64,000 nt of DNA from Leucoraja erinacea (taxonomy: Eukaryota): contig NW_026576708.1 of assembly GCF_028641065.1 (NCBI RefSeq), positions 1 to 64,000 on the forward strand, written 5' to 3'. Each line of letters begins with the position of its first letter. Within the stretch, counting starts at the first letter, position 1. The notes beneath the pieces were generated by a model. The model worked only from the letters and a program-made list of their open reading frames with translations, was not told the origin of the DNA and searched no databases. The position numbers and the translations under genes are program-made. This document shows, piece by piece, positions 707 through 59,289 of the stretch.

Positions 707-1480
707 TTTTATTAGAAGTAAGTACAATAATATGGTACCATAGATACCTAGTATATATTGGCATGGTACAGTTCATGTACAGCTTCTTATTTTTTATTTT
801 AACAATAAAAAAGGAGACAGAAAAAGAATCAAAATAAATAGAGAAGTGTGGGATATCTGGTTAGCAGGTTAGCCGTGTGTGATATCTGGTTAGCTGACCT
901 GCAGTTCAACAACAACAACAAGTTTTACATCATTCAGCTGCTACAAGACAACGAGGCCCGGCGATACAGCGTCTGGATGCGCTGGGGCAGAGGTCAGGGG
1001 GCAGGGGGCAGCGGCAGAGGTCAGGGGGTGAAGTGGATGGGCGTGAGGAAGGGTGTAAGGGGATGAGGGGGGCATAGAAACATCGAAAAATAGGTGCAGG
1101 AGGAGCCCATTCGAGCCAGCACCGCCATTCATAGAAACATAGAAAATAGGTGCAGGAGGAGGCCTTCGAGCCAGCACCGCCATTCATTGTGATCATGGCT
1201 GATCGTCCCCAATCAATAACCCGTGCCTGCCTTCTCCCCATATCCCTTGATTCCACCAGCCCCTAGAGCTCTATCTCACTCTCTCTTAAATCCATCCAGT
1301 TCATGTACAGCTTCCTATTTTTTATTTTTTTATTTTAACAATAAAAAGGAGACAGGAAAAGAATCAAAATAAATAGAGAAGTGTGTGATATCAGAAAGTG
1401 AGAAATAGAAAACGAGAAAAGAAAGAAAATGAAGTCTGGGTAGAGACCAGAAGAATAAAGGAGAGATAGCTATTTGTTAA
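706..1480 (-). mobile_element. AT-rich L1-like 3' UTR fragment interrupted by the exon duplicate
   Basis: Resembles the L1 3' end at 5878-6300 (TTAGAAGTA..., A-rich runs). A ~90-bp segment occurs at 769-857 and again at 1297-1392. Confidence 0.45.
897..992 (+). pseudogene. PARP2: Displaced duplicate of the PARP2 WGR exon (copy of 4186-4278, continuing into copied intron to ~1298)
   Basis: Reads LQFNNNNKFYIIQLLQDNEARRYSVWMRWGR then GTCAGG. Near-identical to 4186-4278 with one extra AAC and a G>C change. The native acceptor is missing and the copy lies out of order, upstream of the 1831 exon. Confidence 0.85.
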
Positions 1481-3760: not shown

Positions 3761-4181
3761 GTAATTCTTTGACTGTCTGTGTGTCTCTGTGGCTGTGTGT
3801 CTCTGTGACTGTGACTGTGTGGCAAATAAAATTAAAGATAGCGGAGTCAGGGGATATGGGGAGAAGGCAGGAACGGGGTACTGATTGTGGATGATCAGCC
3901 ATGATAACATTGAATGGGTCGAATGGCCTCTAGTTGCTGGCTCGAAGGGCCGAATGGCCTCTACTCCTGCACCTATTGTCTATTGTACATTGTCAAATTC
4001 CTTGTATGTTGCCAAACATACTTGGCTACTAAAGTATGATTATGAGGGTCTCGACCCGAAACGTCACCTATTCCTTCGCTCCATAGATGCTGCCTCACCT
4101 GCTGAGTTCCTCCAGCATTTTTTTGTCTACCTACTGTAAATGATCTAATAAATGTGATTTTCTTTTTTTCCCAAAAACCAG

Positions 4182-4278
4182 ACGAACCTGCAGTTCAACA
4201 ACAACAAGTTTTACATCATTCAGCTGCTACAAGACAACGAGGCCCGGGGATACAGCGTCTGGATGCGCTGGGGCAGAG
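4182..4278 (+). CDS. PARP2: PARP2 exon (TNLQFNNNKFYIIQLLQDNEARGYSVWMRWGR), WGR domain
   Basis: Canonical splice sites, WGR motif, phase compatible with neighbouring exons. Confidence 0.95.
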
Positions 4279-4384
4279 GTCAGGGGGCAGGGGGCAGAGC
4301 GGGGGGTGAGGGGATGGGACGAGGGCAGAGGTCAGGGGGTGAAGTGGATGGGCGAGAGGAAGGGTGTAAGGGGATGAGGGGTGC

Positions 4385-5340
4385 ATAGAAACATAGAAAA
4401 ATAGGTGCAGGAGAAGCCCTTTCGAGCCAGCCACCCGCCATTCATTATGATCATGGCTGATCGTCCCCAATCAATAACCCGCGCCTGCCTTCTCCCCATA
4501 TCCCTTGATTCCACTAGCCCCTAGAGCTCTATCTCACTCTCTCTTAAATCCATCCATCCACGCTGCACTGCCTCAATCACAAGGATGTCCTTCCTTAAAT
4601 TAGGAGACCAAAACTGTACACAGTACTCCAGATGTGGTCTCACCAGAGCCCTATACAACTGCAGAAGAAACTCTTTACTCCTATACTGAGATCCTCTTGT
4701 TATGAAGGCCACCATTCCATTAGCTTTCTTCACTGGCTGCTGTACCTGCACGCCAACTTTCAGTGACTAGTGTATAAGGACACCCAGGTCTCACTGTGAT
4801 CATGATATGAAAATGGCTGATCATCCGGAATCAGTTCCCCTTTCCTGCTTTCTCCCCATATACCTTGATTCCGTTAGCGCTAAAAGCTAAATCTGACTCT
4901 CTCTTGAAAACATCCAGTGAATTGGCTTCCGCTGCCTTCTGTGGCAGAGAATGGGTGAAAAAGTTTTTCCTCATCTCAGTCCTAAATGGCCAACCCCTTC
5001 CCTTATTCACTGTGTGACCCCTGTTTCTGGATTCCCTCAACATCGGGAACATTTCTCCTGCATCTAGCCTGTCCAACCTCTTGAGAATTTTACATGTTTC
5101 TATAAGATCCTCTCTCATCCTAAATTCCAGTGAATACAAGCCCAGTCGCTCCATTCTTTCATCATATGTCAGTCCCGCCATCCCGGGAATTAACCTGGTG
5201 AACCTACGCTGCACTCCCTCAATAGCAAGAATGTCCTTCCTCAAGTTTAGAGACCAAAACTGCACACAATGCTCCAGGTGTGGTCTCACCGGTGCCCTGT
5301 ACAACTGCAGAAGGACCTCCCTTACCCCTAAACTCAAATC
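4385..5340 (-). mobile_element. Stacked CR1 fragments
   Basis: RPHLEYCVQFWSP motif twice; CR1 tail. Confidence 0.85.
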
Positions 5341-39506: not shown

Positions 39507-39675
39507 GTCTGTACGAATTGACAGCCCCCCCCCCCCCCGTGACCCCCCCCCCACCCGTCACCCCTGACCCCATATTCAACATCCCAGGGGTCAATCCCAG
39601 GTCAAAGGTCAGGGGGCAAGCACTTGGCCGCAAGGAGACACTGGAAGTAAGTAAACAAGACCAATATATGTCATT

Positions 39676-39681
39676 TTTATT
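39676..39681 (-). terminator. Poly(A) signal of gene Y
   Basis: AATAAA on minus, ~125 nt past the stop at 39806. Confidence 0.7.
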
Positions 39682-39805
39682 CCAATAAACACATTTTACA
39701 AGGTTGCCAGGCGGGGAGATGAGCCCAGCCCAGCCCAGCCCGGAGTTCATCCTAATATCTACATCGGCCGCCATCTTGGTGAGGTCAGGCCAAGATGGCC
39801 ACCGC

Positions 39806-42800
39806 TCAGTGGCCTTCCCCGGGCCGTCCTCGCCGCCGTATACGCAGTAGCTCTCGCGCCGCCACCAGGGACACGTAGTAGAAGATGTCCCAGTATTCCG
39901 CGTCGTCCCAGGGCACTGACATCAAATCCGAGTCCGACAGGCCTTCCTCTTCCCTCAAGGATGCTGCCTGTTCCTCCTGATCTGCTTCCTGTTCCTCCTG
40001 ATCCGCTTCCTGTTCCTCCTGATCTGCTTCCTGCCCCGCTCGGCCCACATCGTGTTTCACTTGGCCTGCTTCATGTTTCTCCCGGCCCTCTTCCTGTTCC
40101 TCCTGGCCTGCTTCCTGTTCCTCCCAATCAGCTTCCTGGTCCTCCCCGCCTGCTTCCTGTTCCTCATGGCCGTCTTCTTCTTCCTCCTGATCCGCTTCCT
40201 CTTCCTCCCGGCCCACTTCCTCTTCCTCCCGGCTCTCTTCCTCTTCCTTCTGGCCCGCTTCCTGCCCTGCACTTCTCACTTCCTGCCCCTCACGTCCTAC
40301 TTCCTGCCCTTCACCATGTGCTTTCTGTTCCTCATGTCCTACTTCCTGTTCCTCCCAGCCCATTTCCTGTTCCTCATGTCCCACTTCCTGTTCCTCCTGG
40401 CCCACTTCCCGTTCCTCATGTCCCGCTTCCTGTTCCTCCCGGCCCGCTTCCTGGTCCTTGTGTCCCACTTCCTGTTCCTCCCGGCCCGCTTCCTTTTCCT
40501 CATGTCCAGCTTCCTGTTCCTCAAGTCCCACTTCCTGTACCTCCCGGCCCGCTTCCTTTTCCACCTGGGTCACTTCCTCTTTGATCGCTATGGCTTCCTC
40601 TTTGCCCATTTCTGCTTCCTCATCCTCCAGACCAGCTTTGTTTTCACTCTGGCCGACTTCCTTTGCCCTAACGCTCGTTTCTTCTTCCTCCCGGCCCACT
40701 TCCTCTTCCTCTGTTTCCGACATCCCCCCATCGTCCGGCTCTGCCCGACACTGCAGAATGTCCGTGTGGAGGGCCGTGGGTTGAGGGGGCATGGGGGTGA
40801 GGCTGGTCAACGAACCGGGCCACTGGGATCTCACCGCCATCTCCGAGCCCTGAAGCCTGTCTGCTAGGCCCGAATCCTCCAGTGTGGACACTGTTTGTAG
40901 GCCCTGAAGCCTAACTCCTGGGCCTGGCCCATGAAGCCTATCCTCTAGGCCTGAATCCTCCAGCGTAGGTACTGATTGTAGGCCCTGAAGCCTAATTCCT
41001 AGGCCTAGCCCCTGAAACCTGTCCACTATGCCTGGATTCTCAACCTTAGGCGCTACTTGCAGGCCCTGAAGCCTAATTCCTAGTCCTGGCCCATGAAGCA
41101 TGTCCACTATGTCTGGATCCTCCACCTTAGGCACTGCTTGTAGGCCTTTAAGCCTGACTCCTGGGCCTCGAGTCCTCGTCGCTGAGGTTGAGGCTGGGGC
41201 CTCCGCGCCGGTCACTGGGCCCTTGTCGGGCCCCACAGCCTGAGCCTCGGGCCCTGCAGGCGAGCGGGGAGGGGGTTCCGGCGGGGCTGGGGGTCCCCAC
41301 CCGCCTCGGTCTCTGCTGGGAGGCCGGGCCACCACCAGCAGGCTCCCGGGGACCATGTTCGGCCGGCTGCTGGGATCCTGGCCCGTGCTGGACTTTCTGC
41401 TGGGATCTGAGACTGCATTCCACAGGCTGCTGGAATCGGGGGATGTGTTTGACTTTCTACTGGGGTCCTGGTCTGCGTTTGACTGTCTGCTGGGATCCAG
41501 GACTACGTTCCACGGGCTGCTGGGATCCGGGGCAGCGTTTAATGGGCTGCTGGGATCTGTGGCTGCGTTCAGCGGGCTGCTGGGATCCGGGGCCGTGTTC
41601 CGAAGCCCCCGCAGGTCCAGCAGGGCGGTCCCTAGTGAGCTGGGACCCAGCAGGATACGGACCACCCGGCCCCCGTCCAGCGCGATGGTCAGATGGCTGC
41701 TGGGATCGGCGGCTGTGGTCAACATTCTGCTGGGGTCCAAGGCTGTATTCAATGGGCTGCTGGCATCCAGAGACACGCCAGGCTGGCTGCTGGGATCCGG
41801 GACTGTGTTAGACATTCTGCTGTGATCCGAGATTGCATTCCATGATCTGCTGGGATTTGGGACTATGTTCAATATTGTGCTGGGTTCCAATACTGCATTG
41901 AACGATTTGCTGCGATCCAAGACTGTATTCGACGGGCTGCTGGGATCCGGGACTGTGTTTGATGTTCTACTGGGATCTATGACTGTATTTGACGAGCTGC
42001 TGGAATCTGGGGCTGTGTTTAACTTGCTGCTGGGATCAGCGACTGCATCCAATGGGCTGCTGGGATCCAGGGCCACGACAGGCCGGCTGCTGGGATCAGG
42101 GATAGTGTTAAGTGTTCTGATGGGATCCAGGACAGCATTCAACATTCTGCTGGGATCTATGACTGTATTCGACGGGCTACTGGGATCCGGGACTGTGTTA
42201 AGCGATCTGCTGGAAACTAAGACAGCATTCAATGATCTGCTGGGATCCTGGATTGCTCCAGGCTGGTTGCTGGAATCTGGAACTATATTCAACGTTCTGC
42301 TGGGATCTGGGTCTGTGTTCAATGCCCTGCTGGGATCCAGGGTTGTGTTTGATGTTCTGCTGGGATCCATGACTGCATTTGACATTCTGCTGGGAGTCAG
42401 GGCTGCTCCGGGCTGGCTGCTGGGATCTATGACTGTGTTTGACGTTCTGCTGGGATCTATGACTGTATTTGATGGGCTACTGGGATCCGGCAGCATACTA
42501 GACCGGCTGCTGGGATCCGGGACAGTGTTCAATGTTATGCTGGGATCAGGAACTGTATTCAATGAACTGTTGGGATCCGGGGCCTCTCCAGCCCGGCTGC
42601 TGGGATCAGGGACTATATTCAACATTCTGCTGGTATCTGGGACTGCATTCAATGTTCTGCTGGGATCAACGGCTGTGTTAAACATTCTGCTGGGATCTGG
42701 GACTGTATTCCATGATCTGCTGGAATCCAGGATTGCTCCTGGCTGACTGCTAGGATCCGAGGCGGTGTTCAACATTCTGCTGGGATCCATGCCTGTGTCC

Positions 42801-45800
42801 AATGATTTGGGATCTGGGGCTGTGTTCAAACTGCTGCTGGGATCAGGGACGGTGTTCGATGGGCTGCTGGGATCTGGGGCTGTGTTAAATGTTGTGCTGG
42901 GATCCCTGGCTGCGTTGACAGGGCTGCTGGGATTCCTGGGAGGGAACGCCGCTTCCAATTCCCTGTTGGGATTGGTGGACGGGATGCTGGGATGCTGGGC
43001 AGGTCTGCGGGGATCGTCCAAGGGCACCACCACCCCAGGATCTACCAGGTTGCCCATGTCCCTGCTGGAGCTGGTACCGGCCCTGCTGGTATGGGCTGCA
43101 GGAGATGCCTCCTGGAGCTCCACCATGGTCCCTACATCCCTGCTGGTCTGGTCTGCCAACCACACCTCAAAATCCATCTCGGTTCCCACATCCCTGCTGG
43201 AGTTGGGACTCGCTCTGCTGGGATGGTGCGTGGGTGAGATCTCCTGAAGTTCCACCAGGATTCCCACATCTCTGCTGGTGCCGGGCCCAGCTCTGCTGGG
43301 ATGGTCTGCCTGCCACATCTCGAGATCCACCAGGGATCCCAGATCTGTGCTGGAGTCAGTGCTCGCTCTGCTGGGATTGCTCGAGGACGCATCCTCATCA
43401 AGGTCCAACATGGGCCCGAAGTCTCTGCTGGTGCTGGGGCCGTCTCTGGTGTGTCTGCTGAGGTATCCGGAGGCTGGGGTGACCTGGGACCCCACGTCCC
43501 TGCTGGTTTTGGGGCTGGTGTGTCTGCTGGGGTAGCCCGAGGCCAATGTCTCCTGAAGGTCCCACACCTGACCTCTGTTAGTCTTTGAGCTGGCGTGTCT
43601 GCTGGTCTGGCCCCAAAATAGTATCTCCTCATGACCCTGCAGGTCCTGTCCGCCCCTGCTGGTGTCGAGAGAATTTCTGCTGGGATGGTGGGTGGGCAGC
43701 CTGGCGATGGGCTCATCTCTGCTGGGTTGCCGCGGGAGACCCACCATCTCTCTGCTGGTGTTGGGGCCAAGGCTGCCGTGTCTGCTGGGATTTCCTGAGA
43801 CGGGGGTCGCATGGGGGTCTTCCCCGTCCCTGCTGGAATGGTCCAGGAGGGGCATCCCCTCTCTGCTGGTGTCAGGATCATCTCTGCTGGGAAATCCTGG
43901 GACCTGGGACTCCGTATCTCTGCCGGGGACGGGGCTGCTGTGTCTACTGGGATCTGCCAATGATGGGGTCACTGGGAGATCCAGCACATTAGTCCTGCTG
44001 GGATTGGTGCCGGTCTGTCTAATGGGGTTCCCCAGCGATGGCAGTCCCTGTAGGACCACCATCTCTCTGCTGGTCTGTCTGCTGGGATTCTCCAAAGCTG
44101 ATGTCCCCTCATAGTCCACCTTGACCCTGCTGGGATTGGGGCTGGTGTGTCTACTGGTTGATCCTGAGAAAGTCTCCTGGTCCAAGGCGTCCACGTCTCT
44201 ACTGGGATTTTCCAAGACTGATGTCTGCTCGAGGTCCACATTGACCCTGCTGGTGTGTCTGCTGGGGTGCCCCACGGCCGACACCACCTGGAGCTCCAGC
44301 GGATTAGCCCTGCTGGTGTCCAGGCTGGTTTTCGCCTTCCTGCTGGTGCCAGCACCTTTTCTACTGGGATGCCTCGTGGGAGGCATCTGCTGGGGCTCCA
44401 TCGACTCCCTGGTGGTGAGGCTGGTGTGTCTGCTGTGTTCGTGTCTCTGAGGCGTAGCTGCTGAGACGATGGCGTGGTCTGCAGTGATCGCGTCTCTGCT
44501 GGTGTCCAGGCTGGTGGGTCTGCTGGGATAGACCAGTGGTGAAGTCCCCTGGTGGCTCCCCACATCTCTGCTGGTGGTGGAGCTGCCTCTGCTGGGATTC
44601 TCCATGGTAGATGTCTCCTGGAGCTCCCCCACCTTTCCCCTGCTGGTGCTGAGGCTGGTGTGTCTACCGGGATATCCTGACATCTCATGGTCCTTGATGG
44701 TCCCGTCATCCCTGCTGGTGTTGGGGCTGTCTCTGCTGGAATCTTCCAAGAGTGATGTTGCCTGGTGGTCCACCAGTTTGTCCCTGCTGGTGTGTCTGCT
44801 GGGAAACCTCAGGGGTGAAGTCTCCTGCTGGTCCACATCTTCCCTGCTAGTGTGTCTGCTGGGATAGTTCAGGGGCGATGCGTGATGGTCCACCACATCT
44901 CTGCTGGGATGGTCCCACCAGTCCAACTCCTCCAAGCCTCCCCGCTCTCTGCTGGTCCCGGTGGTGTCCCTGCTGGGAGAGGCAGAGAGAGGGAGTTCTC
45001 TGCTGGTATTGGCAGAGATTAGGACCTCTCTGCTGGAATTGGAGGAGAGAGGGACCGCCCTGGTGGAATTGGCGGAGAGAAAAAGCTCTCTGCTGGGATT
45101 GGGGGAGAGAGGGAACGTCCAGCTGGGATTGGAGGAGAGAGCATACACCCTGCTGGGATTGGTGGAGAGAGGGATTGTCCAGCTGGGATTGGAGGAGAGA
45201 GGGGCCCTCCAGCTGGGATTGGGGGAGAGAGGGAGCTCCCAGCTGGGATTGTGGGAGAGAGGAAACTCTCTGCTGGGATTGGGGGAGAGAGTTACCTCTC
45301 TGCTGGGATTGGGGGAGAGAGTTATCTCTCTGCTGTTATTGCGGGAGAGAGAGAGCTCTCTGGTGGGATTGGAGGAGAGAGGGAGCTCTCTGCTGGTTTT
45401 GGGGGAGAGAGGGAGCTCTCTGCTGGTTTTGGGGGAGAGAGGGAGCTCTCTGCTGGGATTTGGGGCAAGAGCGACCTCTCTGCTGGGATTGGAGGAGAGA
45501 GGGAGGTCTCTGCTGGGATTGGAGGAGAGAGGGAGCTCTTTGACGGGAGGGATGGGCAAGGAGCGGAGGATTCCGGCCAGTAGCCCTGCAGCCAATGAGA
45601 AGGGGTTGTCCAACTCATTGGGGGGAGGGGAATCGAGGGGCGGAGGGCCCCCCAGCGTGGTGGCCATGATCTGGGCCAGTACAGCGGTGGGGGTGGGGCT
45701 GCCGAGGGCCGGGTCGATGGGGAACCGGGGCTCAGTGTCCTGGCGGTCGGGCTCGGGCAGGGAGTCCATTGTGTCATCCTCCCAGGGCCCGCCCGCCTGG

Positions 45801-46918
45801 CCAGACCTCCCCAAGATGGCCGCTGGATCCGACCTTTCAAAGATGGCTGCCGTGTCCGACTTCCCCAAGGTGGCCACTGCGTACGACCTCCCTAAGATGG
45901 CCCCAGGGTCGGGGCTTTCCAAGATGGCTACCGGGTTGGACCTTTCCAAGATGGCTGCCGGATCCGACCTCCCCAAGATGGCCCCCGTGTCAGACCTTTC
46001 CAAGGTGGTCACCACCGGGTCTGACCTTTGCGAGGTGGTTGCTGGGTCCGACCTTTCTGTGATGGCCGCAGGGTTTGCCCTCCCCAAGATGGCCGCCAGG
46101 TCCGGACTCTTCAAGATGGCCACTAGGTCTGGGCTTCCCATGATGGCCGCTAGGTCAGGAGTCTCCCAGGCTGGGACTGAATCTTGGCCTGGAGCCCACT
46201 TTGCCCGGGAGGCCGGCGGCTCTGGCAACGACAGCGGGACTGTGACTGGCTTGGGCCCAGGCCTGGCCGGGAGTGAGTTAGTGCTGGGCCGGTCCAGTGC
46301 GGCGATCGCCTCAGGCCTGTGCTGCCTGGATGCCCGCTTGTGGTGCTCCAAGATGGCGGCTGCCCCAGGACTGACCAAGATGGACGACCATCGGTAATCT
46401 TCCGCCATGGCTGACCGCTCAGGACTCGCCAAGATGGCCGACTGTGCGGGATCGTCCAAGATGGCCGGCCTCTCAGGACTCACCAAGATGGCCGACCGCA
46501 TGGGAGCGTCCAAGATGGCCGACCTCTCAGGACTCACCAAGATGGCCGACCGTCCCGGAGCGTCCAAGATAGCGGCTGCCTGGGGAGTCTCCGTGCTGAG
46601 GAAGGGCCGGCGGGGAGTGTCCGGGGTGAACTCCCCGCGGAGGGAAGGCGGGGCCGTCTCGCTGTCCTCGCTCTCGGAGAGCGTGCGGAGACTGGCGTCT
46701 GAGATCTCCTCCTCCCACAGATGTCTGGCCGGCCCCTCGCCCACCGGTTCGTGGCGCCGCAGCGCGAGGGCGAGGGTGGGAGAGAGGGAGACGGGGCCCG
46801 CCCGGCGTCTCCGTCTCTCTGGGGTCCTGGTGGGCTCCCGGTCCTGTCCCAGGCCCAGGGTGGACCCCGGCTCACTCTCCTCCTCCCCTCCCTCCAGGGT
46901 GGAGACTCCTGGTAACAC
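39806..46918 (-). CDS. Gene Y: unidentified giant single-exon repetitive protein (~2200-2370 aa, predicted disordered)
   Basis: 7.1 kb with no stop and no recognisable TE insertion. Repeat units of 21, 27, 30 and 75 nt are all multiples of 3. Acceptor before 46959, poly(A) signal downstream. First in-frame ATGs at 46501 and 46408 (gccATGg). Confidence 0.8.
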   Translation of the reverse strand: MLPGVSTLEGGEEESEPGSTLGLGQDREPTRTPERRRRRAGPVSLSPTLALALRRHEPVGEGPARHLWEEEISDASLRTLSESEDSETAPPSLRGEFTPDTPRRPFLSTETPQAAAILDAPGRSAILVSPERSAILDAPMRSAILVSPERPAILDDPAQSAILASPERSAMAEDYRWSSILVSPGAAAILEHHKRASRQHRPEAIAALDRPSTNSLPARPGPKPVTVPLSLPEPPASRAKWAPGQDSVPAWETPDLAAIMGSPDLVAILKSPDLAAILGRANPAAITERSDPATTSQRSDPVVTTLERSDTGAILGRSDPAAILERSNPVAILESPDPGAILGRSYAVATLGKSDTAAIFERSDPAAILGRSGQAGGPWEDDTMDSLPEPDRQDTEPRFPIDPALGSPTPTAVLAQIMATTLGGPPPLDSPPPNELDNPFSLAAGLLAGILRSLPIPPVKELPLSSNPSRDLPLSSNPSREVALAPNPSRELPLSPKTSRELPLSPKTSRELPLSSNPTRELSLSRNNSREITLSPNPSREVTLSPNPSREFPLSHNPSWELPLSPNPSWRAPLSSNPSWTIPLSTNPSRVYALSSNPSWTFPLSPNPSRELFLSANSTRAVPLSSNSSREVLISANTSRELPLSASPSRDTTGTSRERGGLEELDWWDHPSRDVVDHHASPLNYPSRHTSREDVDQQETSPLRFPSRHTSRDKLVDHQATSLLEDSSRDSPNTSRDDGTIKDHEMSGYPGRHTSLSTSRGKVGELQETSTMENPSRGSSTTSRDVGSHQGTSPLVYPSRPTSLDTSRDAITADHAIVSAATPQRHEHSRHTSLTTRESMEPQQMPPTRHPSRKGAGTSRKAKTSLDTSRANPLELQVVSAVGHPSRHTSRVNVDLEQTSVLENPSRDVDALDQETFSGSTSRHTSPNPSRVKVDYEGTSALENPSRQTSREMVVLQGLPSLGNPIRQTGTNPSRTNVLDLPVTPSLADPSRHSSPVPGRDTESQVPGFPSRDDPDTSREGMPLLDHSSRDGEDPHATPVSGNPSRHGSLGPNTSREMVGLPRQPSRDEPIARLPTHHPSRNSLDTSRGGQDLQGHEEILFWGQTSRHASSKTNRGQVWDLQETLASGYPSRHTSPKTSRDVGSQVTPASGYLSRHTRDGPSTSRDFGPMLDLDEDASSSNPSRASTDSSTDLGSLVDLEMWQADHPSRAGPGTSRDVGILVELQEISPTHHPSRASPNSSRDVGTEMDFEVWLADQTSRDVGTMVELQEASPAAHTSRAGTSSSRDMGNLVDPGVVVPLDDPRRPAQHPSIPSTNPNRELEAAFPPRNPSSPVNAARDPSTTFNTAPDPSSPSNTVPDPSSSLNTAPDPKSLDTGMDPSRMLNTASDPSSQPGAILDSSRSWNTVPDPSRMFNTAVDPSRTLNAVPDTSRMLNIVPDPSSRAGEAPDPNSSLNTVPDPSITLNTVPDPSSRSSMLPDPSSPSNTVIDPSRTSNTVIDPSSQPGAALTPSRMSNAVMDPSRTSNTTLDPSRALNTDPDPSRTLNIVPDSSNQPGAIQDPSRSLNAVLVSSRSLNTVPDPSSPSNTVIDPSRMLNAVLDPIRTLNTIPDPSSRPVVALDPSSPLDAVADPSSKLNTAPDSSSSSNTVIDPSRTSNTVPDPSSPSNTVLDRSKSFNAVLEPSTILNIVPNPSRSWNAISDHSRMSNTVPDPSSQPGVSLDASSPLNTALDPSRMLTTAADPSSHLTIALDGGRVVRILLGPSSLGTALLDLRGLRNTAPDPSSPLNAATDPSSPLNAAPDPSSPWNVVLDPSRQSNADQDPSRKSNTSPDSSSLWNAVSDPSRKSSTGQDPSSRPNMVPGSLLVVARPPSRDRGGWGPPAPPEPPPRSPAGPEAQAVGPDKGPVTGAEAPASTSATRTRGPGVRLKGLQAVPKVEDPDIVDMLHGPGLGIRLQGLQVAPKVENPGIVDRFQGLGLGIRLQGLQSVPTLEDSGLEDRLHGPGPGVRLQGLQTVSTLEDSGLADRLQGSEMAVRSQWPGSLTSLTPMPPQPTALHTDILQCRAEPDDGGMSETEEEEVGREEEETSVRAKEVGQSENKAGLEDEEAEMGKEEAIAIKEEVTQVEKEAGREVQEVGLEEQEAGHEEKEAGREEQEVGHKDQEAGREEQEAGHEEREVGQEEQEVGHEEQEMGWEEQEVGHEEQKAHGEGQEVGREGQEVRSAGQEAGQKEEEESREEEEVGREEEEADQEEEEDGHEEQEAGGEDQEADWEEQEAGQEEQEEGREKHEAGQVKHDVGRAGQEADQEEQEADQEEQEADQEEQAASLREEEGLSDSDLMSVPWDDAEYWDIFYYVSLVAARELLRIRRRGRPGEGH

Positions 46919-47151
46919 AGGGCCAGCCGAGGGCGGGACGGATCCTCGATGTAGCTACCCTGCAGGGGAAGAGGCAAACACAACAGTCAGTCGGCCGAGG
47001 AGTCAGGAAATAGAACAATGCAACATGGCTTAGACGGCAATGGAGACACATGGGTCAGGGGACAGCAGCAGAGATTGTGGACTGAAGGGCCTGTTCCTGT
47101 ACTGTATAAGTGTATAAAACTACGGGAGGTGTAGATGGAGCTACACGATAC

Positions 47152-48240
47152 CGGTGGAGCAGCGGGTAGAGCTGCTGCCTCACAGCGCCGGAGACGCGGG
47201 TTCGATCCTGACCACGGGTGCTGCCTGTACGGAGTGTGCACGTTCTCCCCGTGACCTGCGTGGGATTTCTCTGGGTGCTCCGGTTTCCCGTCCCAAGCAA
47301 AGACGTGCGGGTTTGCAGGTTAATTGGTTTCTGTAAATTGCCCATTGTCCCTGGCTAGTATTCGTCGATGGTGTGTACTTGGTGGGCCGAAGGGCCCGTT
47401 TCCACATCTCAAAACTTAACTGAGCAATGTGGCATCGGCAGCAAGTGAGAGACATGGGTCAGAAGTAGGCAGAGTAGATGTTGGGCCGAAGGGCCTGTTC
47501 CTGTGCTGTACCGTTCTGTGAATAGATTCATAGAATAATAATCACAATGTGGAAACAGGCCCTTCGGCCCAACTTGCCCATGCCGACCAACATGCCCCCA
47601 TCTACACTTGTCCCACCTGCCTGCGTTTGGCCCTTATCCTTCCAAACCTGTCCTATCCATTTACCTGTCTGAATGTTTCTTTAACATTGGGATAGTCCCA
47701 GCCTCAACTACCCACACCACCCCTGGTGTAAAATAAAGTCACTCCTCAGATTCCTATTAAATCCTTCCAGGCAGGAAACATGTTCCCGATGTTGGGGGAA
47801 TCCAGAACCAGGGGCCGCAGTTTAAGAATAAGGGGTAAGCCATTCAGAACGGAGACGAGGAAACACTTTTTCTCACAGATAGTGGTGAGTCTGTGGAATT
47901 CTCTGCCCCAGAGGGCGGTGGAGGCCAGTTCTCTGGATACTTTCAAGAGAGAGCTAGATAGGGCTCTTAAAGAGACCTGGGTTTGATCCCGACTGCAGCT
48001 GCTGTCTGTACGGAGTGTGCACGCTCTCCCTGTGACCGCGTGGGTTTTCTCCGGGTTCTTCAGTTTCCTCCCACACTCCAAAGATGTGCAGGTCCGTAAG
48101 TTAATTGGCTTGGTAAAATTGTAAATTGTCCCTAAGTTAAGTGTGTGCAAGATAGTGTTAGTGTACGGGGATCGCTGGTCGGCACGGACTCGGTGGGCTG
48201 AAGGGCCTGTTTCCACGCTGTATCTCGAAACTAAACTCAA
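47152..48240. mobile_element. HE1-like SINEs (47152-47420, 47970-48240) and CR1 fragments
   Basis: A/B boxes and CR1 3' sequence. Confidence 0.8.
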
Positions 48241-48558
48241 CTAATGGCATGCGCAGGAAAGAACTGCAGATGCTAGTTTAAATCGAAGGTAGTCACAAAA
48301 TGCTGGAGTAACTCAGCGGGACAGGCAGGCAGCATCTCTGGAGAGAAGGAATGGGTGATGTTTCGGGTGGAGACCCTTCAACATACATACTGCTGGGGTG
48401 TAAACTGCCCGAGCGAAATATGAGGTGCTGTTCCACCAATTTAATCTAATGACATTGTGGGCTGAAGGGCCAGAGGTTTCTGAGCTGTACCAGTCTATAA
48501 CAAAGTGGGCTGAAGGGCCTGTTTCCGTGCTCGACGAGTCGAAGGCCGCATAACTTGC

Positions 48559-48665
48559 CAGCTATTGGGATTTGCAAAGATCCCAGACTCTTGCAGGGAG
48601 GGGAGAGGGTCGTCTGCATTGTTTGCAGGGGGATAGTGGAGAGGGTGGGGGAGAGCAGCCCGCTG
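48559..48665 (-). other. Candidate 5' exon of gene Y (CAGCAG acceptor, GC-type donor G|GCAAGT)
   Basis: Unique sequence among repeats with splice-like ends; contains an ATG at 48619. Confidence 0.35.
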
Positions 48666-48844
48666 CTGCAGGGCAATGAGAGGGGGGGGGGGGACATGGG
48701 GGTGTAACAGGAGGTGCAGGGGGGGGGGGGGGGATAGGGGGTGCAGGGTGGGGTAACAGGGGGGGATAGGGGGTGCAGGGTGAGGGGACGGGGGGGGGGG
48801 GGGGGGTGCAGGGTGAGGGGACGGACGGGGGGGGCACTACTTAC

Positions 48845-49230
48845 CGCCGCTCCCGGCCGCTGGGCGCGATGTTGCTGATTGTGATCCCTGGAGCGCGCGG
48901 CGGCCCCCGGGCTCTGTGACGTCGCCGCGGGCTGCCCCTGTTACGTCACAGGGAGGAGGGGGGAGCAGTCCCGGGGAACCCCCGCCAGAGCCGGCACTAC
49001 GCATGCCCCAGGCGTATGTGACATCACATGGGACAGTCCCGGGGAACCCCCGTCAAAGCCGGCATTGCGCATGCTCCAGCTGTCGGTGACGTAAACGGTT
49101 GGGGAACCCCATCCCACTCGCATTGCGCATGCCCCGGGCGGTGGTTAACATCACTTGCGCCGCGGCCGGGAGTCGGCGCATGCGTAGTGGGCGGACCGCC
49201 GCTCGGTCACCAGTTCGAATCCCAACCCCG
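48845..49230 (-). promoter_or_regulatory. CpG-island promoter and first non-coding exon of gene Y
   Basis: Strong donor G|GTAAGT at 48844; CRE-like TGACGT/TACGTCA; NRF1-like (G)CGCATGC several times; GGGGAACCCC unit repeated three times. Confidence 0.7.
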
Positions 49231-49340
49231 CCACTGAGGGGATGTTAATCCACGAGGGGGGGGGGACGTGATCATTCCCCCCCACGTCAGGGGTGAGGGA
49301 CAAAAGGATAGAAAAAGCCGGAGAGAAAGGATAACATGGC

Positions 49341-58357: not shown

Positions 58358-58940
58358 CACGGAGCCGGAGGTTTAGTTTTGTTTGTCTCTATGTTTCGAG
58401 GGATATGGAGCAAAGGGCGGCGGGGACTCGGCGCCTCGACACAGGCCCAAAGCCGTCGCCATGGCGACCGCCGAACCCCATCGATTGTGACACGCGGCGG
58501 CGGAAGCCCGCGCATGCTCAGACCCGGCGCACGTCGGACTCCAATTCCCATCGGGCGTCGCGGTGTGCGCTCTACGTCATCACGCGGGACGCCGAGCCGC
58601 GACGTTGTCGGCCAGCGCATGCTCAGAACCGGCGGCCTTGGAGGGATGGGACTCCAACTCCCATCGGGCACCGCGGTTCCCCCCTCTACGTCATCACGCG
58701 GAACGCCGAGGCCCGTCCTGACGTGTTCGTGATGTGTTGTAGGCCCGCGCATGCTCAGACCCGGCGGCTTTGGAGGGGGGACTCCAACTCCCATCGCGCA
58801 CCGCGGCGGGCGCCTCACGCGTAACGCCGAGTCCCGTCGTGACGCGGCGTTGTAGGCCCGCGCATGCTCACAACCTGCGTACTTGGGTTAGAGGGGACTC
58901 CAATTCCCATGGCTCTCTGCGGCCGGGCCCGCTACGTCTG
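58358..58940 (-). promoter_or_regulatory. CpG-island promoter made of four tandem ~105-130-bp modules; probable first exon of gene X with donor at ~58357
   Basis: Units at ~58506, 58611, 58743 and 58856, each with GCGCATGCTCA (NRF1-like) and GGACTCCAAYTCCCAT (ZNF143/SBS-like); most also carry CTACGTC(A) (CRE-like). Confidence 0.72.
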
Positions 58941-59289
58941 CAGCCCTCCATCTTCCCCCACAACCTGCTGCCCCCTACCGGCCAACACTGGGATAGGCAG
59001 GGTGGGTCCAATTCGTTCTAGGAACAGAATGAGGTCACTCGGCCCATCAAGTCTACTCTGCCATTCAATCATGGCGGGTCTACCTTTCCCTCTCAACCCC
59101 ATTCTCCTGCCTCCTCCCCGTAACCGCTGACACCCGCACTAATCAAGAATCATGACCACCTTCGGGGAATTACGTCCCTGATCTCCTCGGCCCCTTCTGC
59201 CCCACAACAGTCCCCAGAGCCATACCATTTACCATTGTGTCGGACCTGCCCACGTCCAAAATGCAACACCTCACATTTCACTGTATTAA

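What the first reader, a model, noticed from the sequence alone, without database searches (positions are those of the whole stretch)
39806..46918. Orphan 7.1-kb single-exon ORF built from six different in-frame repeat blocks
Seen: 2370 codons with no stop and no recognisable TE insertion, in a window otherwise saturated with CR1 and SINE copies. Blocks from N to C: 9-aa AAILGRSDP (27 nt), 10-aa ELPLSPNPSR (30 nt), a long degenerate HPSR/TSR region, 10-aa NTVPDPSS repeats (30 nt), four ~25-aa G.RLQGLQ units (75 nt), and acidic 7-aa EQEAGHE (21 nt). It ends in a unique aromatic/basic tail SVPWDDAEYWDIFYYVSLVAARELLRIRRR. A promoter, a donor, an acceptor and a poly(A) signal frame it. Inference: a lineage-specific, mostly disordered scaffold or structural protein with very many S/T-R phosphosites and a short C-terminal binding helix. 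I recognise no family.
Basis: partly seen in the sequence, partly recalled or inferred. Interest (0 to 1): 0.85.

Follow-up and report, generated by a model that had tools for sequence, protein, structure and literature searches.

The report
Shark-and-ray repeat protein, conserved tail
This is a real but unstudied gene, so far found only in sharks and rays, for a very long, floppy, repeat-filled protein whose short end piece is shared with three relatives and probably grips another protein.

Summary
It looks selected as protein: no stops where about 16 are expected from repeat divergence, no interspersed repeats in 7.3 kb, CpG-island promoter, intron, poly(A) signal. It is not an orphan. A catshark protein (scyTo_0022047) shares five colinear islands and 30 of 38 tail residues; two 300-330 aa proteins from a ray and another catshark end in the same motif (13 of 38 invariant in all four). 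So it is the long form of a small, undescribed elasmobranch family with two paralogues. Most repeat blocks are absent from the catshark orthologue: recent in-frame expansions, three of the six from one unit. No Pfam, PDB or paper match. Best reading: a disordered tether whose C-terminal helix docks on a conserved partner, with a second helical island (weakly AKAP-like) and repeats acting as tunable spacer. Partner, tissue, expression and true start codon are untested; homologue searches were insensitive, so a diverged bony-vertebrate relative is not excluded.

The parts
48850..49260 (-). CpG-island promoter and inferred non-coding exon 1; three GCGCATGC (NRF1-type) sites plus one partial, two CRE-like sites
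   Evidence: GC 0.68, CpG o/e 0.92 against 0.45 in window 1-39600; 8 of 9 CGCATGC in the window lie here or in the upstream gene's promoter; NRF1 motif GAGCATGCGC as given in PMC7305168. Start site inferred.
46960..48844 (-). Intron 1 (GTAAGT donor at 48844; pyrimidine tract and CAG acceptor, first exon base 46959); a weaker CAG acceptor lies 51 nt downstream (first base 46908)
   Evidence: 54% covered by interspersed repeats; splicing inferred from consensus only
39806..46954 (-). Open frame, 2382 codons stop-to-stop; first ATGs 46501 and 46408
45785..46579 (-). Block A: 9-aa xxAILxxxx units (27 nt), residues 126-390, two sub-arrays; begins upstream of the first ATG; core DNA GCCATCTTG resembles a YY1 site; the same 9-aa AIL array exists in the catshark protein
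   Evidence: (score 85, 0 of 200 shuffles reach it)
45545..45712 (-). Conserved island, residues 415-470: helix - proline linker - DNPF - amphipathic helix
   Evidence: score 96, 0 of 200 shuffles; single-sequence AlphaFold2 helices at residues 422-434 and 451-465, mean pLDDT 65.6
44969..45538 (-). Block B: 10-aa ELPLSPNPSR units (30 nt), residues 473-662; not in the catshark protein
42920..44968 (-). Block C: degenerate PSR/TSR units of variable length, residues 663-1345; contains the RDVGT island shared with the catshark protein (1200-1300)
   Evidence: (score 77, 0 of 200)
41360..42919 (-). Block D: 10-aa NTVPDPSS units (30 nt), residues 1346-1865; not in the catshark protein
40838..41161 (-). 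Block E: four 27-aa G.RLxGLQ units (81 nt), residues 1932-2039, followed by the conserved 'HTDIL' island (2040-2075)
   Evidence: island (score 67, 0 of 200)
39950..40720 (-). Block F: acidic 7-aa units (21 nt), residues 2079-2335, net charge -81; a short acidic run holds this place in the catshark protein
39809..39949 (-). Family-defining C-terminal motif (short helix, loop, 23-residue amphipathic helix, basic end)
39676..39681 (-). AATAAA poly(A) signal, 125 nt after the stop

Best explanation
A functional two-exon (or more) gene of a cartilaginous fish, encoding the long paralogue of a small undescribed elasmobranch family. The protein (about 236-239 kDa from the first ATGs, pI 4.75, one cysteine, no hydrophobic segment long enough for a signal or membrane anchor) is an intracellular disordered tether. 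SHOWN: coding constraint, gene signals, orthology, two paralogous forms, conservation confined to short islands, helical tail by prediction. INFERRED: the 38-residue tail folds on binding a conserved partner and is the core function, since it is the only part shared with the 300-330 aa paralogues; the helix pair at 415-470 recruits a second partner specific to the long form; the repeats arose by in-frame slippage or unequal crossing-over after the split from the catshark lineage and act mainly as a length- and charge-tunable spacer, selected for staying open and polar more than for sequence. A basic cluster ends the tail, so a nuclear or nucleic-acid-adjacent site is possible; tissue is unknown (male germ line is my first guess, from recalled properties of such fast-evolving repeat proteins). 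Odds: real coding gene of this family 0.9; tether-with-docking-helix mechanism 0.55.
For: 0 stops where 15.7 are expected from divergence among 107 repeat units, 0 of 5000 simulations stop-free; 86 of 90 spacings between core motifs are multiples of 3; pN<pS in blocks A, D, F; 0% interspersed repeats against 55% around. Five colinear islands shared with S. torazame scyTo_0022047, each above 200 of 200 shuffles; spacers between them are 294/283, 807/488, 819/346, 293/97 aa; repeated 5-mers cover 29% here, 4% there. Tail identity 30 of 38 within long forms, 27 of 38 within short forms, 15-19 of 38 between, always 4-6 residues from the C-end; the two Scyliorhinus proteins share only 15 of 38, so two loci, and the short form occurs in a shark and a ray. 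Tail model pLDDT 79, helix 2352-2374.
Against: No expression, protein or binding data. Only four sequences. Block B shows pN 0.082 > pS 0.058, and units were picked by amino-acid patterns, which lowers pN; block by block only F rejects neutrality (P0 for A 0.12, B 0.36, D 0.06, E 0.31). Residues 1-125 do not match the catshark N-terminus (162 of 300 shuffles as good). The AIL array starts upstream of the first ATG, which fits a DNA-level role or a missed upstream coding exon. No partner is identified. Synteny of the relatives could not be seen.
Confidence: 0.55

Rival explanations
1. It is a highly diverged member or orthologue of a gene family that also exists, perhaps already named, in bony vertebrates; only the search depth makes it look elasmobranch-only.
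For: The conserved signal is 38 residues; the two-sequence profile reached the in-clade paralogues only at E 2e-4 and 6e-4; two word-index searches missed P0002 although it lay in their length range. The window is GC- and repeat-rich, the kind of region where fast-evolving, often-lost genes are reported (PMC10208646, abstract start and passages).
Against: No Pfam family for any of the four members; no PDB match; no motif-bearing hit outside elasmobranchs at E<=0.001 among 1.84 billion representatives.
Confidence: 0.3
2. The repeats are the working part: a structural or condensate-forming protein (for example of spermatids) whose many PSR/TSR/PSS units are phosphorylated or cross-bind, the tail only anchoring it.
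For: About 1400 residues of PSR/PSS-type units kept open and in frame; S/T-R 97 against 36 expected; acidic heptads of net charge -81. NRF1- and CRE-type promoter sites are methylation-sensitive elements (PMC7305168, PMC9729108, passages), compatible with restricted expression but also with housekeeping.
Against: The catshark orthologue lacks blocks B, D, E and most of F and has no S/T-R excess; short paralogues have no repeats; no tissue data.
Confidence: 0.25
3. The long form is an A-kinase anchoring protein: helix 450-467 binds the PKA regulatory D/D domain and the tail targets the complex.
For: 7 of the 8 hydrophobic-face positions listed in PMC12083921 (passages) are met at the homologous helix of both long forms; it has the highest hydrophobic moment in P0001; predicted helix.
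Against: Position 2 is Pro in both and the type I F/Y-A motif is absent; such matches arise by chance (at least one 7-of-8 window in 42% and 70% of shuffles; recalled regex in 81%); absent from the short forms.
Confidence: 0.12
4. The locus is mainly a DNA element or non-coding RNA (minisatellites, YY1-site array) and the ORF a by-product or decaying gene.
For: 14 of 16 plus-strand AAGATGGC in the window lie in block A, ATC is used in 18 of 18 units and GCC in 16 of 18 although ATC makes only 22 of 41 Ile codons elsewhere; tandem YY1 arrays are known regulatory elements (PMC4196374, passages); the array begins before the first ATG.
Against: Stop avoidance, frame-keeping spacings and protein-level conservation of a non-repetitive tail in four species. 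Codon constancy can come from recent homogenisation and lack of CpG. A dual role for block A remains possible.
Confidence: 0.05

Closest known systems
Scyliorhinus torazame hypothetical protein scyTo_0022047 (P0002, 1478 aa, partial)
   Same: Five colinear islands, 9-aa AIL array, acidic run before the tail, tail 30 of 38 identical
   Different: About 900 aa shorter; lacks blocks B, D, E and most of F; N-terminus matches the neighbouring upstream gene weakly rather than this ORF; itself uncharacterised
Narcine bancroftii uncharacterized protein (P0004, 334 aa) and Scyliorhinus canicula 'skin secretory protein xP2-like' (P0005, 306 aa)
   Same: Pro/Ser-rich disordered body ending in the same motif, 19 and 17 of 38 identical
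   Different: Seven times shorter, no repeats, carry WKTPFWIIEDF and PYxDLxPEDL motifs absent here; the xP2-like name is presumably an automatic low-complexity label (inference)
A-kinase anchoring proteins (AKAPs)
   Same: Long disordered scaffold with a short conserved amphipathic helix of similar hydrophobic register
   Different: No binding shown; Pro at position 2; pattern not above chance; no sequence homology found
Vertebrate giant-exon repeat proteins such as RPGR-ORF15, RP1L1, SPATA31/C2orf16, FSCB, skNAC (recalled, not from a call)
   Same: One large coding exon of in-frame, fast-changing repeats with an acidic tract and a short conserved end
   Different: No homology detected (Pfam); resemblance is architectural only

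Membership tests
Undescribed elasmobranch family (P0002, P0004, P0005) | C-terminal motif D..LM.....D.E.W..FY......AR.L...RR within 6 residues of the end | tested here: met
   13 of 38 positions invariant in 4 of 4; short-form profile finds this tail at E 2.5e-8 among 2440 window ORFs
Undescribed elasmobranch family, long form | Colinear islands shared with scyTo_0022047 | tested here: met
   5 of 7 tested segments exceed all 200 shuffles; the two N-terminal segments do not
Undescribed elasmobranch family, long form | Conserved synteny (PARP2 / TMBIM-like neighbours) | not testable with these tools
   No animal genome collection was on hand; only this window's order is known
AKAP | 14-18 aa amphipathic helix hydrophobic at positions 2,5,6,9,10,13,14,17 (PMC12083921) | tested here: inconclusive
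   7 of 8 in both long forms, but chance rate 42-70%
AKAP (type I) | F/Y-A at positions 1-2 | tested here: not met
   N-P at positions 1-2 in the conserved register
AKAP | Binds the RI/RII D/D domain | not testable with these tools
   needs overlay or pull-down
Tail-anchored membrane protein | Hydrophobic C-terminal helix of about 17-20 residues | tested here: not met
   Best 17-residue Kyte-Doolittle mean in the tails 0.93, 0.49, 0.27, 0.34, with charged residues inside; threshold recalled
Kinesin-1 W-acidic adaptors | Trp flanked by Asp/Glu in a disordered peptide (PMC6214655) | tested here: inconclusive
   WDD in 2 of 4 members (long forms), with P or S before it; replaced in the short forms
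Any Pfam family | Match above gathering score | tested here: not met
   0 for P0001, P0002, P0004, P0005; tail only Copper-fist E 0.22-0.29, below cut-off
Any solved fold | Significant structural match of the tail model | tested here: inconclusive
   Foldseek 0 matches; best Z 3.8, rmsd 3.7, 54 aligned, unrelated helices; model too small to decide
Transposon-derived ORF (LINE/LTR) | RT, endonuclease or gag domains, or copies elsewhere | tested here: not met
   No Pfam domain; no similar copy elsewhere in the window; remote domestication not excluded

The most novel reading that the evidence does not exclude
An elasmobranch-born gene family built on a new 38-residue docking module, kept since before the shark-ray split (about 270-300 million years, recalled) in a 300-aa and a 1500-2400-aa form, whose long form grows by in-frame minisatellite expansion, whose first array doubles as a YY1-site array in its own exon, and whose tandem neighbour is a tail-less duplicate: a natural series for how repeats extend a scaffold, serving a shark/ray-specific cell structure such as their sperm.
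Probability: 0.25. Interest if true: 0.65.

Novelty: new variant of a known kind. Interest (0 to 1): 0.42.

Why it matters
It turns three scattered 'hypothetical' records and this ORF into one family with a defined, testable motif. Cartilaginous fishes are known for slowly evolving genes (recalled), so a family whose body changes sevenfold in length while 13 of 38 tail positions stay fixed is a clean case for studying repeat-driven protein growth and taxon-restricted genes. It does not yet imply new biochemistry: disordered repeat proteins with a short anchor are a known kind, and no function is shown.

Tried and rejected
Pfam on the ORF, its ends and the relatives: nothing. PDB by sequence or profile: nothing below E 0.9. 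ESM Atlas: no usable hit for the tail or P0004. Fold searches: nothing clear. Rfam 36000-64000: 0. Search with the tail among 1310-4169 aa proteins: 0 of 33 candidates, and it missed P0002, so uninformative; one search also missed P0002 among 8000 scored. P0003 (1 of the 4 hits) was dropped: a repetitive 657-aa protein matching profile positions 7-39 (largely acidic) in five internal copies, without the invariant W, FY and AR.L. No second tail copy in the window; the upstream gene does not match the short-form profile. Cluster look-up and complex prediction of tail self-association were not available, so presence of this exact protein in public sets and oligomerisation are open. The catshark paper's supplement could not be read, so expression of P0005 is open. 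Paper searches found nothing on this family; search 56 (scyTo_0022047) 0 papers. WH2, calmodulin, LIR and PP1/PP2A motif readings of the tail were considered from memory and dropped because key positions differ or vary among the four members. Phage, plasmid, bacterial, viral and metagenome DNA collections were not searched.

Full report
Observation. The stretch holds one open frame on the minus strand, 46954-39806, 2382 codons from stop to stop; the other five frames have 28-72 stops, and 200 Markov-1 resamples give at most 446 aa. The first in-frame ATGs are at 46501 (2231 aa) and 46408 (2200 aa, good Kozak context). Tandem Repeats Finder gives periods 27, 30, 75-78 (end of the degenerate block), 30, 81 and 21 nt; the G.RLxGLQ units are 27 aa. 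Blocks B, C and D share the core CCAGCAG (91 copies, 89 in one frame, 86 of 90 spacings multiples of three), so they descend from one unit.

Is it coding? From the divergence among 107 repeat units, 15.7 stops are expected without selection; none is seen and 0 of 5000 simulations were stop-free, though block F carries most of that signal. pN/pS was 0.131/0.219 (A), 0.082/0.058 (B), 0.105/0.146 (D), 0.089/0.190 (F), with units chosen by amino-acid pattern, which biases pN down. Sequences repeated elsewhere in the window cover 0% of 39661-46960 and 54-55% of the intron and flanks. A CpG island (o/e 0.92) with NRF1-type and CRE-like sites lies at 48850-49260, then a GTAAGT donor at 48844, an acceptor before 46959, and AATAAA 125 nt after the stop (NRF1 motif from PMC7305168 passages; CRE from PMC9729108 passages). 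The simplest model is a non-coding exon 1 and a 7.3-kb exon 2. An alternative joins an ATG at 49004 through a weaker acceptor at 46908 to give 2421 aa; the frame is open 151 codons before the first ATG, the AIL array begins there, and the catshark model is also 'partial' at its start, so the N-terminus is unsettled.

Surroundings. PARP2 exons lie on the plus strand at 0.8-17 kb, tail to tail with a Bax-inhibitor-1/TMBIM-like gene on the minus strand (weak Pfam match E 0.002; further exons read). Pfam was run on 300 of 337 filtered ORFs of 60 aa or more. Directly upstream lies a second repeat-rich gene of unknown family with the same build (see Noticed in passing). The window is inferred to be from a cartilaginous fish because all motif-bearing relatives are; shark or ray was not determined.

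Relatives. The tail found one protein among 42 candidates: Scyliorhinus torazame scyTo_0022047 (P0002, 1478 aa, E 1.8e-9). Five of seven tested segments match it above all 200 shuffles and in the same order: AIL array, helical island 415-470, RDVGT, HTDIL, tail; residues 1-125 do not. The spacers are 294/283, 807/488, 819/346 and 293/97 aa, and repeated 5-mers cover 29% here against 4% there, so blocks B, D, E and most of F are expansions of this lineage (or losses in the catshark; not polarised). A two-sequence profile over 1.84 billion representatives gave 4 hits: P0002, a spurious repetitive protein (dropped), and P0004 and P0005 at E 2.2e-4 and 6.3e-4. One search named these Narcine bancroftii (a ray) uncharacterized protein, 334 aa, and Scyliorhinus canicula 'skin secretory protein xP2-like', 306 aa. 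The four tails align without gaps at the very C-end: 30 of 38 identical within the long pair, 27 of 38 within the short pair, 15-19 between, 13 invariant. Two congeneric catsharks sharing only 15 of 38 means two loci; a short form in both a shark and a ray means the duplication probably predates their split. Sensitivity was low: both missed P0002 within their length range, so absence from other vertebrates is not established.

Structure and motifs. AlphaFold2 on the four-sequence alignment gives a short helix (2341-2345) and a long one (2352-2374), mean pLDDT 79, pTM 0.52; the invariant W, FY, A and L fall on one helical face (inference from spacing). It is too polar for a membrane anchor. Fold searches were uninformative. 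The island 415-470 is predicted as two helices; the second meets 7 of 8 AKAP hydrophobic positions in both long forms (PMC12083921 passages) but such matches are common by chance. S/T-R dipeptides are enriched here and not in the orthologue; S/T-P, RxxS/T and PKA sites are at chance level. Block A's core DNA matches the YY1 motif known from tandem arrays (PMC4196374 passages) and its codons are unusually constant; a dual DNA role is possible but unproven.

Mechanism. Most likely an intracellular disordered tether: the tail, the only element common to all four, docks on a conserved partner; the long form adds a second helical binding island and more than 1500 residues of polar spacer whose length and charge drift by in-frame repeat expansion. 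Shown: coding constraint, family, conservation pattern, predicted helices. Inferred: binding, spacer role. Guessed: germ-line expression. Rivals are a diverged member of a wider vertebrate family (0.3; context from PMC10208646, abstract start and passages), a structural protein whose repeats do the work (0.25), an AKAP (0.12) and a DNA-level element (0.05); these overlap and do not sum to one.

Literature. Searches (listings and abstract starts only) returned nothing on this family; the library lacks most subscription journals, and the supplement of the S. canicula genome paper PMC11979771 (passages seen) could not be read and may hold expression values for P0005. PMC6214655 was seen as passages. 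Names of giant-exon repeat proteins, the shark-ray divergence time and the CR1/SINE labels are recalled.

Verdict. Real gene, not an orphan, member of an undescribed elasmobranch family defined by a new short motif; a new variant of a known kind of protein. Interest 0.42; 0.65 if the family proves clade-born with a specific structural role (probability about 0.25).

Noticed in passing
window 58960-49330, minus strand: Second gene of unknown family directly upstream: CpG island 58360-58960 (o/e 1.17) of four tandem units each with GAGCATGCGC and a CTCCAA[TC]TCCC motif, donor 58360, 76-nt ATG exon 54704-54629, large exon from 51650, 496 aa with 18-nt GLEPDY repeats, AATAAA 49346. No Pfam match. 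Its N-terminus weakly matches catshark P0002 88-142 (IWEAEL motif; 11 of 1000 shuffles) and it shares a 22-nt stretch with the main ORF (E 0.004): possibly a tail-less tandem duplicate.
   Followed up: partly
window 50237-50235 and 50234-49569, minus strand: The upstream gene's TGA is followed by 221 more open codons in the same frame, with their own 102-nt repeat: recent nonsense change, sequencing error beside a C run, or read-through.
   Followed up: no
window 45813-46546, 39770-39799, 37047-37157: YY1-like AAGATGGC/GCCATCTT motifs: 14 in block A, an inverted pair just after the stop codon, and three at 37.0-37.2 kb, perhaps the promoter of the TMBIM-like gene.
   Followed up: partly
window 842-1063 and 4158-4385, plus strand: Two near-identical copies of one PARP2 WGR exon (29 of 33 aa identical, the first with an extra residue): exon duplication or assembly artefact.
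   Followed up: partly
window 26560-19290, minus strand: TMBIM/lifeguard-like gene (exons near 26.56-26.34, 24.55-24.43, 21.23-21.09, 19.44-19.29 kb), tail to tail with PARP2; paralogue not determined.
   Followed up: partly
window 62130-62065, minus strand: Short putative last exon after a pyrimidine tract (NEIIRWDLSEVHECLRMEHP, stop); no Pfam or PDB match; belongs to a gene beyond the window.
   Followed up: partly
window 31006-32170 and 34470-35600: Two similar blocks of LINE-like ORF plus purine-rich flank, a local duplication of about 1.2 kb; four N gaps lie at 14983, 25148, 26565 and 34242, none in the finding.
   Followed up: no
P0004 and P0005, last 120 residues: The short paralogues share two further motifs (WKTPFWIIEDFQAP and PYxDLxPEDL) not found in the long form or elsewhere in the window.
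   Followed up: partly
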